From Lytechinus pictus (Eukaryota): 64,000 nucleotides of DNA. The notes below the pieces were generated by a model. That model saw only the letters and a program-made list of their open reading frames with translations. It had not been told where the DNA came from and did not search any database. Position numbers and translations under genes: made by a program. The stretch is from contig NC_087252.1 of assembly GCF_037042905.1 (NCBI RefSeq), forward strand, positions 5,334,001 to 5,398,000. The letters run 5' to 3'. Positions 6,952 through 16,711 of this stretch are shown here, one piece after another. Each line of letters opens with the position of its first letter. Position 1 is the first letter of the stretch.

Positions 6952-7269
6952 CATTCAGGCTTTACACAGAGAAGTCTTTAACAGCGGTGCGAGGCGGAAA
7001 TATCTCCCTACCCTGTAATTTCTCCGTTCATGCACATGCAGTCTACTGGTACAAACACAACTTCAGTGGAGCGCCAGAAAACGACGCTGAACTCGTAGCC
7101 CGTGATGTCTTAGGGGTATCTGACCCTGTCCCGGGTTTTGAGAGGTTCAGCATCACCAAGGACTACAGCCTGATCATTAGAAACATCACTGTTCACGACG
7201 AGACGACCTACTCATGCCTAGTTGTGGATATAGAAAGGGAAAGAGGCTATACGGACTTGAGAGTTATAG
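6952..7269 (+). CDS. Ig-ballast receptor copy 1, IgV-set exon
   Basis: Acceptor catgcag|, donor |gtaagg, phase 1-1. AVRGGNISLPC..VYWYK..ERFSIT.DYSLIIRNITVHDETTYSC has the V-set B-strand Cys, C-strand Trp and DxxxYxC motif. Confidence 0.92.
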
Positions 7270-7429
7270 GTAAGGGATACATGTGTGTTTGTGTGTGTGT
7301 GTGTGTGTGGTGTACTCATTCCTAGGCATGTCTATCCTATAGCCTTCAAAACAGTATGAAATGTTAGATTAAACTAAAATGGACACTAACTAGTCAACAA
7401 TATAAAATAAAATATATTAACAGATCAGA

Positions 7430-8013
7430 ATATTGATTTGAATAAGTAGACAAAAATCAAATTAGCATAACACTGAAAATTTCATCAAAATCGGATGTGA
7501 AATAAGAAAGTTATGGCATTTCAAAGTTTTGCTTATTTTCACGAAACAGTGATATGCACAACTCAGTGACATGCAAATGAGTCAGTCGATGATGTCCATC
7601 ACTCTCTATTTCTCTTGGTCTTATTGTTTGAATTATACAATATTTCATTTTTACAGATTTGACCATAGGGACCGACTTGACTGAACCATATAGTAAAAAA
7701 AACCAATGCTAATTCCACATGTCCAGGGAGGAAGTAATCACTGTTTCACATGGCAATGAGGATAAAATTAGAATATTTCATATCTCTATAATAAAATAAA
7801 AAAAGAAATAGTGAGTGGATGACGTCATCAGTCTCCTCATTTGCATACCAACCAGGATGTGCATATAACTGTTTTGTGAAATAAAGCGAAATTTTGAAAT
7901 GTCATAACTTTCTTATTTTACATCCGGTTTTGATGAGATTTTCAGTGTTATAAAGGTAAGGATTTTATCTTTTTATTCAAATAATTTTTTGTCGGGGTGG
8001 ACTTGTCCTTTAA
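7430..8013. mobile_element. Non-autonomous Kolobok-like MITE (left end eroded); related copies at ~42600-43147 and ~49530-49890
   Basis: Right end ggggtggacttgtcct|ttaa; internal inverted repeats (ttcatcaaaatcggatg..aataagaaagttatg vs cataactttcttattttacatccg); shared sequence with the other two copies. Confidence 0.7.
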
Positions 8014-8669
8014 TATAGCCCATGAATGATTGAAAAAGAACCTGTCTTCATTGTCTCATAGCTTTCAACGAATTCCCACCTCACTGGAAAGACTATCATC
8101 ACCACACAGCAAATAGATGGGAATCTAGAGACACGATTTTAACAAGATGATAAACTAAAATGCTAAAAAGACTGACCGCAGGATGACCGTCCATACAGGA
8201 AGCATTGTTTTTATTTTCTCTTTTTCAACCTCAACTTTACTTATTTCATTTTATTTCGCCGTTTCACATCCTTTCCAGGACGCTTCATCAGGTCCATGAA
8301 CCACGGCGGCAATGGAGAAATATTTTATTCAGTTAATGATGGTTGAAAACTTAATTTCAATGTTCCAGTTCAATATATGGATTTAATTCAAAGTTATTCG
8401 AGCTATCACCTGGAGCATCGTCATTTACTAACATCAATCCAAATCATCGATAAACTTAATAATAGCCATCGCATTATCATACAGGTTTATTATAGATCTT
8501 CTTGTCAGCTTCTTTTTGTGGGGGGGGGGGGTGTGGGCATTTCATGTCAGTTGATTACTACCTCATTTTCATGAGAACTGAGAAAGAAGGAGACTAATAT
8601 TAATTTCATTTCACCTTGATGTAAATCTATTTTTACGCATCTCAATTTTCATCATGTCGTTAGCTTTAG

Positions 8670-8923
8670 CAGAGCCCCTTGAACCCGTCATCGAGATCAT
8701 CGAGCCCTGTACTTTAAGACCGCAAGGGGGATGCATGTACCATGTTAATAGACCTACTACTGATGAGGACACATCGGAGGTTATAATACTTGTTTCTAAA
8801 CTTTTCAATATTCGACCTCTGCCAAATCTGACTTGGATTGGAAGCGATGGAAGATTAAATGAAAATGCAACTTACCAGACGCAGGAGAAAGATGGGCTGT
8901 TCAGCATTTCATCACAAGTTCAG
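8670..8923 (+). CDS. Ig-ballast receptor copy 1, C-type Ig domain exon a
   Basis: Three in-frame acceptors (exon start 8664, 8670 or 8673); donor cag|gtttct, phase 0. NIRPLPNLTW and DGLFSISSQV are typical of CD80-like C2-set domains. Highly similar to 57314-57567. Confidence 0.85.
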
Positions 8924-9585
8924 GTTTCTATATCTTTCTGGACGTTGAGTTTATGTGCACCAAAAAGTTTGGGGTGGATACTTTTGGAAATGTATATTTC
9001 CTAGTAAACTTTAAAAAATATGAATCAAAGAATAGTAAGGAAATCAATGAAATGAAATATAACTTACAACAAAATACATTTTCCGTTTGATACATCTCAG
9101 TGACACGAATGAGGATGTATTGGTATATGAATATCGTTTTTTTTTTGTCCTCTACTTTGATTAGAAATTGCGCATATTGATAGGTTGTCGAATTAGCGGC
9201 ATCTTTTTTCATGCGGATAGCAACCGTTTCATAGGTTTACAAATTTGTAAGGAATTTTAATTAGACGAAAATTACAGTTAGCTGTGCCCATGGCCGTCAA
9301 AAACGCAGATCAACATGCAGCCTGCATCGTGTATTGGTAAATCTAAATTTCAATCTTTTACGTACTTTATTCTAATTCATAGAAACAATGAGAGAGTAAT
9401 GATGTTAAAAAGGAATAATGTCATATATGCACACATCTTTCGCCAGATTAACTTACATTGCTAATAAGTTGACATTTACAATTGTCATACCGCCAAGTAG
9501 ATGGCTTGTACGCTTCCGCATTGCTAGTATAAAATTTAATTTTCATTGCAATGTTTTCCTTACAATTGTTACATTCTATTGATAG

Positions 9586-14311: not shown

Positions 14312-14696
14312 AATATAAAGACACCGAAAGAAGCAAGACGAATGGGATATCCATGGTAGTCGAAAATAATGACAATGATGATGAACCTGACCAAGATACC
14401 GAAACTAGGGAGGCGGATGGGATGCTAACGACAGCCGGGTATAATGGTGATGATGAAGCTACCCAATGCAGGAGAAAGAACAATTGTTGGTGTTCGTGTG
14501 GGAACTGTCCTGTGATGCAGACTGATGAAGAAAGCCTCTGTTGCCGTGAACTCAAGAGATGTCGGGAAATCCAGACCAATGGATGTATCATTGATTCTAA
14601 CAGAATAAAATTCCTTTGTCTTGACAAACCATCTCTGCGTGTGTTTATCTCTTTAAGGAGCAAAGACCATCAAATTCCCGGATATATGGAGAACAA
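14312..14696 (+). CDS. Ig-ballast receptor copy 1, acidic linker + N-terminal half of P2X7-type ballast (Zn-coordinating Cys) domain
   Basis: tttcttcag|..AAC AA|gtaaga, phase 1-2. WCSCGNCPVMQTDEESLCCRE...GCI parallels P2X7 WCQCGxC..EELCCR..ACI. Confidence 0.87.
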
Positions 14697-15091
14697 GTAA
14701 GATCTTATCATTAATATAAAGGAAGGAATAATTCAAGCTGAAAGTTTTAAGTAATAAAGAGATAAAAATGTAATATAAAACAAAATTATGAAAAAAGACA
14801 ACAAACAATAAAATATCAAAGATAAGTAGTAATGATAATAAGATAATAAAAAGAGATTATCATGATAAGGTGATGAATACGGAATATGCTTTTGAACGTG
14901 TCTGAACACAAAATCTATTTATGTTTCAATAGCAGCTGTGAATAATGCTCAAGTCCACCTCCTGGACTGTTGTATGATTTTTCTTTTTATTTTGTACATA
15001 AATTGACAGTACTTAAACATAAAATCCTCCCCCGACTCACAGACAGACATACACACCCTAACACACATTCGTACGGACGTGAATGAGTTAA

Positions 15092-16059
15092 GGTCCCCTC
15101 ACACCTAACCAAATTGCCTGAAATATGCCTTGCGATGGCTGGCGAAAGGCATTTTTTAAGAAATCACTTTCAATGGTAAATTATAGAAACTCATATTTAC
15201 CCTTCGCGTTTGGGCTCGTACACCTTCTGAACTAACAGCTGCAATTATTCAAATTCGTGCGAAATTTTGAACATGTTTGAAATTTCCCGACGAAATGAGA
15301 AATCGTTGGTCATCTGTTTGAATTTGCATCTCTTATTTACTCTGCGGTAATTGTTAGTTTATCATTCGTGTTTTATTGTCGCGCATAGTCCCTCATCGCG
15401 CTCTTGCCAAAGTGGACCGATCACGAAAGAACCCGTAACGAAGCAACACGATAACACAACGAACAAGATTGCCCGATCTATTCCCTCGTCTTCGTTTCTG
15501 ATCGCACGCCATATCAAACCATTGCTCACTGTTCCTTCATCTCATTGGGTTATATCAACCCTTCGCTCGCCTTCGGCCGCATTTTTCTCAAAGAGGTGAA
15601 CCAAAAAATCGATATCCTTCGCATGTCATATTTATCCTTCGCTTACCGTCCGTTGATAAAATTTGATAATAGATACTGATCGCTATGATTTGACTGAAAT
15701 TTTATTTGAATTCGTTGAATTCGCGTGCATTTCGTTCATTTTTCCCATCCTTCGCATGTCATATTTATCCTTCGCTTACCGTCCGTTGATAAAATTTGAT
15801 AATAGATACTGATCGCTATGATTTGACTGAAATTTTATTTGAATTCGTTGAATTCGCGTGCATTTCGTTCATTTTTCCCATCCTTCGCATGTCATATTTA
15901 TCCTTCGCTTACCGTCCGTTGATAAAATTTGATAATAGATACTGATCGCTATGATTTGACTGAAATTTTATTTGAATTCGTTGAATTCGCGTGCATTTCG
16001 TTCATTTTTCCCATCCGTCACCCTTCGCCCGTCTACATTCGGTCAGGTGTGAGGGGGCT
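15092..16059. mobile_element. Kolobok-like non-autonomous DNA transposon in the intron splitting the ballast domain
   Basis: ttaa|ggtcccctcacacct ... aggtgtgagggggct|ttaa: TTAA on both sides, short TIRs, purine-purine start. Confidence 0.72.
15614..16016. repeat. Tandem repeat, 3 x 133 bp, apparently identical copies
   Basis: Unit starting atccttcgcatgtcatatttatcc at 15614, 15747 and 15880. Confidence 0.92.
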
Positions 16060-16509
16060 TTAAGAGATGCACGGGACGTAGGTGTCGGGTTTCCCATCGC
16101 AACCCATAAGCTAGATTTAGCTCGATGTGCGCTGCCGCATCCCGCAAGCACCACCCTTGGGCAAAAGAATAGTACTATAGAACACCTGAGTGGCCATACC
16201 AACGCATTATAGTACGCGATGTTTGCACACGCATGTGCAATATAAAAAAAAAGTGTGTGACTTTGTGCCTGCTTGATCGTTTGACCTGTTGGAGTACTTT
16301 TGTGGACCAAAAAGAGAGTTGTGCTCTATCATATCGATGGATTTTCCCAATCATTAAAAATCGTCCAGGACGTGGACTAATCTATCTGAGCTTTGCCCTC
16401 CCTGGCTGATTATCTCGCATTTGTAATTGCTGCATTAGGTTGTACTCAGGGCAATCTCTATATTTGTATTCTTATGGATCTTTTTTATGATGTCCCATGG
16501 CCTTTTCAG

Positions 16510-16711
16510 ATCATATCGGTTTGCCGCTTTTAGGATTTGGTCAGATTACTTGCACGGATACATGGGTAAAGGAGTTCGATGGCCTCTTCCAGCCTGCGTG
16601 GTGACACGAGTGCGTCAAGAGTTCCACAATAAGACAGGTGTCTACGCTGGCTTCAAATTTGGGAAACATGGGAAAGTTGGAAAGGTAATCGAAATGTCTC
16701 AACTTTTTTAA
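16510..16711 (+). CDS. Ig-ballast receptor copy 1, terminal exon: C-terminal half of P2X7-type ballast domain
   Basis: ccttttcag|A, phase 2 matches the previous exon. SYRFAAFRIWSDYLHGYMGKGVRWPLPACVVTRVRQEF..GVYAGFK parallels P2X7 LRHxAYR..LPSCCRWxIRKEFP..GQYSGFK. Stop TAA 16709-16711; AATAAA at 16824. Confidence 0.88.

What the first reader, a model, noticed from the sequence alone, without database searches (positions are those of the whole stretch)
6952..16711. Immunoglobulin-superfamily receptor whose cytoplasmic tail is a P2X7-type Zn/GDP-binding ballast domain
Seen: six exons (6952-7269, 8670-8923, 9586-9691, 13333-13461, 14312-14696, 16510-16711) with GT-AG sites and matching phases (0,1,1,2 after an initial 1) splice into one open frame of about 464 aa: IgV, C-type Ig, TM, acidic linker, Cys-rich domain. 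Established: this last domain carries the signature of the vertebrate P2X7 cytoplasmic ballast, which binds two Zn ions and GDP/GTP; related domains occur in Nanor-like proteins and in the accessory protein of some Kolobok transposons. Inference: an Ig receptor has captured the ballast independently of P2X7 and may use it as an intracellular signalling or oligomerisation module, possibly in innate immunity. I do not know of a described Ig-TM-ballast receptor family.
Basis: partly seen in the sequence, partly recalled or inferred. Interest (0 to 1): 0.93.

Follow-up and report, generated by a model that had tools for sequence, protein, structure and literature searches.

The report
Sea urchin receptor with P2X7-type tail
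A small family of sea urchin cell-surface immunoglobulin receptors has gained, as its inner tail, the same zinc-binding 'ballast' domain that the vertebrate inflammation channel P2X7 gained separately, so the domain's unknown job can be studied without the channel.

Summary
All six exons have AG/GT sites and one open frame. Pfam finds V-set and P2RX7_C. A confident model of a paralogue's tail matches only P2X7 (Z 13.0, rmsd 3.2 A, 130 residues). Transcript data show spliced ballast exons, a TM-to-ballast joint (paralogue 3 form), exon 2 starting at 8664, and exon 6 ending at 16684 before a seventh exon. The signal-peptide exon lies upstream of the window. The exon 3-to-TM joint was not displayed and rests on RefSeq models and homology.

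The gene is one of five tandem copies. All four examined are intact, with ballast dN/dS 0.42, and an orthologue exists in Lytechinus variegatus. The tail is 48-50% identical to a free-standing urchin KolX-like protein, against 25-29% for P2X7, and shares its intron. So this is a separate capture from P2X7. All seven cysteines are kept, but only 2 of 5 GDP residues. Sister receptors carry GTPase, death-like or coiled-coil tails. A frog MHC-I-like model may be a third capture. Function is untested. I found no paper describing this architecture, though RefSeq holds an uncharacterised model.

The parts
6952..7269 (+). Copy 1, IgV exon (phase 1 at both ends)
   Evidence: V-set E 1.4e-11; contig with 0 differences at 7072-7266
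8664..8923 (+). Copy 1, first part of the C-type Ig domain; acceptor at 8664 (8670 is a second in-frame AG)
   Evidence: (contig 8661-8891, 0 differences)
9586..9691 (+). Copy 1, end of the C-type Ig domain and stalk
13333..13461 (+). Copy 1, transmembrane exon with basic stop-transfer residues
   Evidence: hydropathy of the paralogue models; homologous exon in all four copies examined
14312..14696 (+). Copy 1, acidic linker plus first ballast exon (six of the seven conserved Cys)
   Evidence: PF20478 31.2 bits; contigs with 0 differences starting at 14310
16510..16684 (+). Copy 1, second ballast exon (seventh Cys; equivalents of R546 and R578)
   Evidence: joints 14696/16510 and 16684/17476
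17476..17540 (+).
   Evidence: contigs with 0-2 differences at 17710-18338
48319..48409 (+). Copy 2, signal-peptide exon
56096..56428 (+). Copy 2, IgV exon
57308..57567 (+). Copy 2, first part of the C-type Ig domain
59802..59907 (+). Copy 2, end of the C-type Ig domain; its TM and ballast exons lie 10-12 kb beyond the window

Best explanation
The locus is one of five tandem genes for a type I membrane receptor: signal peptide, IgV, C-type Ig, TM, acidic linker, ballast, short tail. It arose once, before L. pictus and L. variegatus split. An intron-containing KolX-type gene (the accessory gene of Kol0 Kolobok transposons) came to lie behind the TM exon of a sea urchin V-C receptor and replaced the earlier tail. 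Shown or well supported: architecture, fold, kept cysteines, splicing of the tail exons, purifying selection, separate origin from P2X7 (about 0.9). Inferred: the IgV binds a surface ligand on another cell or microbe and clusters the receptors. The zinc-stabilised ballast then acts as a non-catalytic docking or self-association module that relays this inside the cell, filling the slot held by an IFI44-like GTPase, a death-like domain or a coiled coil in sister receptors. An immune or self/non-self role is the likeliest setting. Guanine-nucleotide binding is possible but unproven (about 0.35). The confidence given is for the whole statement, function included.
For: Open frames and AG/GT sites in 4 of 4 copies examined; a fifth copy has V and ballast exons. 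Ballast dN/dS 0.42 (bootstrap 0.27-0.65), against 0.80 for the linker and 0.95 for the TM exon. Spliced joints and 0-difference contigs of similar depth over the Ig exons, ballast exons and 3' UTR: X2 7.2, 7.0, 6.9, 8.5; X1 34.6, 36.2. Three RefSeq models join Ig, TM and ballast: XP_063959511.1, XP_054761146.1, XP_041470054.1. Foldseek's 14 hits at E<=0.001 are all P2X7; VIA Z 13.0 with the next row at 4.5. The phase-2 intron is shared with 13 of 19 other ballast loci in the genome. The ballast-bearing ectodomains form one group (88/99), with the L. variegatus gene beside copy 3. Sister tails. The isolated human ballast is a soluble trimer that binds GDP and Ca2+-calmodulin (PMC9574498).
Against: The exon 3-to-TM joint was not displayed. 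RefSeq splits copy 4 into an Ig-only model and a TM-ballast model, and an older model of copy 1 ends in intron 3. Only 2 of 5 GDP contacts are kept. Copy 1 has Phe where 99% of 119 homologues have Tyr, and His where 88% have Pro. The P2X7 region upstream of the zinc core (about residues 396-442) has no evident counterpart. The IgV shows no overall positive selection (dN/dS 0.47). There is no ITIM in the tail. No expression data by tissue or immune challenge were obtained. The ectodomain clade's support is below the tool's 95/80 mark.
Confidence: 0.5

Rival explanations
1. The fusion is real but the ballast is a structural passenger. It is kept folded so that the receptor traffics and is stable, and it relays no signal. 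The receptor would act as a nectin- or CD200-like adhesion molecule.
For: Constraint is moderate (dN/dS 0.42, the same as the Ig domains). GDP contacts are mostly lost and copy 1 departs from the consensus at two conserved columns. The L. variegatus model lacks the Cys cluster, although this may be a modelling gap. In P2X7 the ballast moves little on ATP binding (PMC9859053 abstract). The nearest Atlas clusters are CD200-, CD80- and butyrophilin-like, at scores under 0.9, so leads only.
Against: All seven Cys and both Arg are kept in 4 of 4 copies through about 0.1-0.35 synonymous changes per site, although truncation would be the easy route for a passenger. Sister receptors carry effector-type tails in the same position.
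Confidence: 0.25
2. Two transcription units: a secreted Ig-only protein (exons up to 3) and a separate TM-ballast protein. The full fusion would be rare or limited to copy 3.
For: RefSeq models XP_054761137.1 (copy 1, older assembly) and XP_063959318.1 (copy 4) stop after the Ig domains. XP_063959319.1 and XP_063959126.1 are TM-ballast only. Intron 3 is 14 kb in copies 2 and 4. The joint itself was not displayed.
Against: The phases match in all four copies. Three other models make the joint. Ballast-less sister receptors have a similar TM segment directly after the same exon end. In run X2 the bin holding exon 3 has too little depth for read-through into the intron (1.21 over 477 bases, about 5 per exon base; my arithmetic). 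The TM-ballast models have no signal peptide and look partial.
Confidence: 0.1
3. The ballast is an integrated guanine-nucleotide or zinc sensor, or a decoy. It reports cell state or pathogen interference and thereby controls the receptor from inside, as a functional stand-in for the GTPase tail of its relatives.
For: The S. purpuratus relative and an L. variegatus relative have P-loop GTPase tails. The two most conserved GDP arginines are kept. Rump et al. modelled the site as possibly compatible with GDP (PMC7016195).
Against: H547, R574 and K583 are not kept. No binding data exist for any non-mammalian ballast in the papers read.
Confidence: 0.15

Closest known systems
Vertebrate P2X7 cytoplasmic ballast (PDB 6u9v, 9e3m; Pfam PF20478)
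   Same: Same fold (Z 13.0, rmsd 3.2 A over 130 residues). Seven Cys, and equivalents of E496, R546, P570 and R578. C-terminal and cytoplasmic, behind a TM helix.
   Different: The host is a single-pass Ig receptor, not a trimeric two-TM ATP-gated channel. 25-29% identity. The domain is split by an intron, whereas P2X7 encodes it in exon 13 (PMC7016195). No cap or C-Cys anchor. H547, R574 and K583 are absent.
KolX accessory protein of Kol0 Kolobok transposons, and Nanor/ZCD proteins (PTHR36981)
   Same: 48-50% identity to the free-standing urchin protein XP_054759764.2. Shared phase-2 intron. Several free-standing copies occur as near-identical pairs on different contigs.
   Different: Fused to a receptor and duplicated in tandem with it. 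Rump et al. describe invertebrate ZCD proteins as short and without TM. No transposase or inverted repeats were linked to this locus.
V-C type IgSF receptors (nectin/CD200/CD80-B7/butyrophilin layout)
   Same: Signal peptide, IgV, C-type Ig, TM; phase-1 exon borders; tandem cluster; seven N-glycosylation sequons. Swapped tails recall butyrophilins' captured B30.2 domain (recalled, not from a call).
   Different: No orthology to any vertebrate family was tested or shown. The tail is a ballast.
Sea urchin sister receptors (XP_030834857.1, XP_041470981.1, XP_063959118.1, XP_063959509.1, XP_063959596.1)
   Same: Same ectodomain family, 38-62% identity; several lie on the same contig.
   Different: Tails are an IFI44-like GTPase, a death-like domain (under the Pfam cut-off), a coiled coil with a ubiquitin-like domain, or a coiled coil. 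All are automated models, not checked here.

Membership tests
P2X7-type ballast / ZCD domain | Pfam PF20478 above the gathering score | tested here: met
   Exon 5 alone 31.2 bits against 23.5; paralogue P0007 62.2 bits
P2X7-type ballast / ZCD domain | Seven conserved Cys in three motifs | tested here: met
   Present in 4 of 4 copies. Mapped by the motifs of PMC7016195. HMMER places the CC pair a few residues off. That these exact residues ligate zinc is recalled from McCarthy 2019, which was not held.
P2X7-type ballast / ZCD domain | Ballast fold | tested here: met
   Model of paralogue P0009, core pLDDT 85-98. Copy 1 itself was not folded.
P2X7-type ballast / ZCD domain | GDP/GTP contacts R546, H547, R574, R578, K583 | tested here: inconclusive
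   2 of 5 kept, as in most invertebrate ZCDs. Binding is not testable here.
P2X7-type ballast / ZCD domain | Trimer formation | not testable with these tools
   Needs SEC-MALS or SAXS; see Tried and rejected
P2X receptors | P2X ectodomain with two TM helices | tested here: not met
   No P2X family match; Ig domains and one TM instead
Kol0 Kolobok transposon | KolX-like coding region | tested here: met
Kol0 Kolobok transposon | Adjacent DDD/E transposase, TIRs, TTAA duplication | tested here: inconclusive
   No transposase-sized ORF near the exons. PF20700 hits lie elsewhere. A distant probe found nothing. TIRs were not searched.
V-C type IgSF receptor | V-set domain | tested here: met
V-C type IgSF receptor | Membrane-proximal C-type Ig domain | tested here: met
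   C2-set_2 21.9 bits against 21 in P0007; split over two exons
V-C type IgSF receptor | Signal peptide and one TM on one mRNA | tested here: inconclusive
   Exons present and in phase. The signal-exon and exon 3-to-TM joints were not seen in reads.

The most novel reading that the evidence does not exclude
The KolX/ballast domain is a transposon-borne plug-in signalling tail that immune-type surface proteins have captured at least three times: P2X7 in bony vertebrates, this urchin V-C receptor family, and an MHC class I-like gene in the frog Hyperolius (XP_068105447-50, unverified models). In urchins it is one of several interchangeable effector tails on a modular Ig receptor family, and it binds guanine nucleotide much as the GTPase tails of its sisters do.
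Probability: 0.25. Interest if true: 0.85.

Novelty: new variant of a known kind. Interest (0 to 1): 0.66.

Why it matters
What the P2X7 ballast does is an open question: its zinc and GDP sites are called 'of unknown function' in PMC9859053. The survey of the domain's origin found it on no other membrane protein (PMC7016195). A second, younger capture onto a single-pass receptor in a tractable model urchin separates the ballast from the channel and lets its role be tested directly. It is also a clear case of a transposon accessory gene becoming a receptor tail, and it exposes a sea urchin Ig receptor family with swapped effector tails.

Tried and rejected
Single-sequence fold of P0007: pLDDT 39, not used. 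Trimer prediction of the ballast with GDP: no answer, and no evidence either way; the alignment was not used by the tool. Run search: no RNA holder listed, which says nothing on expression. Search for a Kol0 transposase beside free-standing copies: PF20700 hits lay elsewhere; a distant 86-aa probe was not found with this query; wider flanks could not be fetched. A piggyBac-like ORF is near L006 and a Harbinger-like ORF is near L010 (labels recalled), so the mobile carrier of those copies is not established. Homology of the acidic linker to sister tails or to KolX N-termini: not significant, best 33 of 500 shuffles. One regular expression for GDP residues failed, so these were read from the alignments. 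Atlas search with P0007 showed no Ig-plus-ballast cluster, but small clusters cannot appear there. Earlier findings: nothing in three look-ups. Rejected: chance juxtaposition of a transposon exon (four intact copies, selection, spliced joints); a P2X7 orthologue; a retrocopy origin (the intron is kept). P2X7 could not be placed in a tree because no stored sequence was available.
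Full report
Observation. The six intervals have canonical splice sites and give one open frame of 464 aa. Pfam assigns V-set to exon 1 and P2RX7_C to exons 5 and 6. The window is G000:C8:5334001-5398000 of an 812 Mb genome. RefSeq models of near-identical genes on a contig of the same length are labelled Lytechinus pictus.

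Transcript evidence. Four runs were laid on 4700-19000 at 90% likeness, so paralogue reads also map. X1 and X2 are contigs only guessed to be RNA; X8 and X11 are recorded RNA reads. GT..AG joints were seen at 14696/16510 (X1; one read in X11) and at 16684/17476 (X1, X2, three reads in X8). The X2 contig across the second joint has no differences, whereas copy 3 is 93-96.5% alike there, so it belongs to this copy. A joint from the TM exon end (13461) into the ballast exon appears in X1 in the form expected of copy 3, whose first acceptor is mutated. For copy 1, two contigs without differences begin exactly at the exon 5 border and continue elsewhere. Contigs without differences have similar depth over Ig exons, ballast exons and UTR within each run. 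The exon 3-to-TM joint was not among the 15 joints shown (370 hidden), and the tool allowed one call. Corrected structure: exon 2 from 8664, exon 6 to 16684, exon 7 at 17476-17540, 478 aa in the window, plus a signal exon upstream (two candidates).

The family. Five close copies of exon 6 lie within C8 5.35-5.61 Mb, each downstream of a close IgV exon. Four were fetched in full; copy 5 was not. All four have intact sites and frames. Pooled dN/dS is 0.47 for IgV, 0.47 for IgC, 0.95 for TM, 0.80 for the linker and 0.42 for the ballast (bootstrap 0.27-0.65) (Nei-Gojobori, pairs not independent). RefSeq joins Ig, TM and ballast in three models: two for L. pictus and one for L. variegatus, the last lacking the Cys cluster. 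It splits copy 4, has a TM-ballast-only model that matches copy 5, and cut an older model of copy 1 in intron 3. This is the main evidence against.

Fold and residues. Paralogue P0008 finds P2X7 first in the PDB by sequence (E 1.1e-10). A model of paralogue P0009 was built on 121 sequences: 119 of 148 new hits, with long or partial ones dropped. It is confident over the core and matches only P2X7: 14 of 14 Foldseek hits at E<=0.001, and Z 13.0 against 4.5 for the next row. The seven Cys are kept in 4 of 4 copies. Of the rat GDP contacts listed in PMC7016195, R546 and R578 are kept and H547, R574 and K583 are not.

Origin. The closest non-cluster hit among 1.84 billion representatives is a 197-aa free-standing L. 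pictus protein, 48-50% identical. P2X7 is 25-29% identical. The phase-2 intron inside the domain has the same acceptor position in 13 of 19 other loci; it is absent in 4, and 2 were not read by the pattern. Several of these loci are 97-99.8% identical over about 3 kb on different contigs, as mobile copies would be, but I could not tie them to a transposase. PMC9587614 states that KolX of Kol0 Kolobok has the ballast fold and is the likely source of the P2X7 and Nanor domains. A DNA-level capture of a KolX-type gene behind the TM exon is therefore inferred. The ectodomain tree groups the ballast-bearing genes (88/99) with the L. variegatus gene beside copy 3, so fusion and duplication predate that species split.

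Context. The same ectodomain (16 hits) carries other tails in automated models: a P-loop GTPase resembling IFI44 in L. variegatus, with a weaker GTPase match in S. purpuratus; a death-like domain (E 0.0027, under the cut-off); and coiled coils, one with a ubiquitin-like domain. Among the 148 new ballast hits, 4 had a hydrophobic stretch of 1.8 or more. Of 21 scanned with Pfam, one is an MHC class I-like frog model with a TM and a ballast, two have THAP and one a weak KRAB. Only 150 of 1568 hits were listed, so other fusions may exist.

Mechanism. Most likely, ligand binding by the IgV clusters the receptor, and the zinc-stabilised ballast serves as a docking or self-association module, probably in immune or self/non-self recognition (0.5). 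This rests on the tail's position, on the sister tails, and on the soluble human ballast being a trimer that binds GDP and Ca2+-calmodulin. None of it is shown for the urchin protein. Rivals are a passive structural tail (0.25), an internal nucleotide or zinc sensor (0.15) and split transcripts (0.1).

Literature. Eight full-text searches found no description of an Ig-TM-ballast receptor. Subscription journals are mostly outside the library, InterPro could not be queried, and no supplements were read. The KolX alignments of PMC9587614 could bear on the donor. Read: PMC7016195, parts 1-4 of 6; PMC9587614, passages; PMC9574498, part 1 of 4; PMC9859053, abstract and outline; PMC7916673, passages (not relevant). 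McCarthy 2019 was not held.

Verdict. A real, transcribed, selectively maintained fusion: a new variant of a known kind (transposon-domain capture), present in databases only as an uncharacterised model.

Noticed in passing
P0038, P0173-P0175 (XP_068105447-50, Hyperolius riggenbachi): RefSeq models join an MHC class I-like ectodomain, a TM and a ballast domain: a possible third independent capture. Unverified by reads.
   Followed up: partly
P0020, P0024, P0018, P0016, P0023: The same urchin V-C ectodomain carries IFI44-like GTPase, death-like, coiled-coil/ubiquitin-like and coiled-coil tails. A modular receptor family worth its own study.
   Followed up: partly
window 34441-35387, - strand: Rhodopsin-family GPCR coding region broken over several frames: a pseudogene or an assembly error.
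   Followed up: partly
window 45290-45452, - strand: Short exon with a signal-peptide-like start and two KR sites, ending at a GT donor; may be a secreted peptide precursor. No Pfam match.
   Followed up: partly
window 1458-4591 and 24133-26961, - strand: Two LINE-type reverse transcriptase elements; the first is fragmented.
   Followed up: no
window 5721-5849: Stretch conserved about 1 kb upstream of the IgV exon in copies 1, 3 and 4, used as a first exon by partial RefSeq models in different frames.
   Followed up: partly
window 15614-16016 and 9950-12030: Three identical 133-bp tandem units in intron 5; a repeat element with 170-bp subrepeats and inverted ends in intron 3.
   Followed up: no
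G000 C5:35.92-35.97 Mb, C8:21.26-21.30 Mb and several small contigs: Long tandem arrays (period about 4.4 kb) of identical PF20700 transposase genes, resembling multimers of KolobokP-type elements (label inferred).
   Followed up: no
G000 C9:1.32-1.53 Mb: A cluster of at least 14 more distant IgV exons.
   Followed up: no
P0139, P0170, P0137: Models fusing THAP or KRAB domains to a ballast.
   Followed up: no
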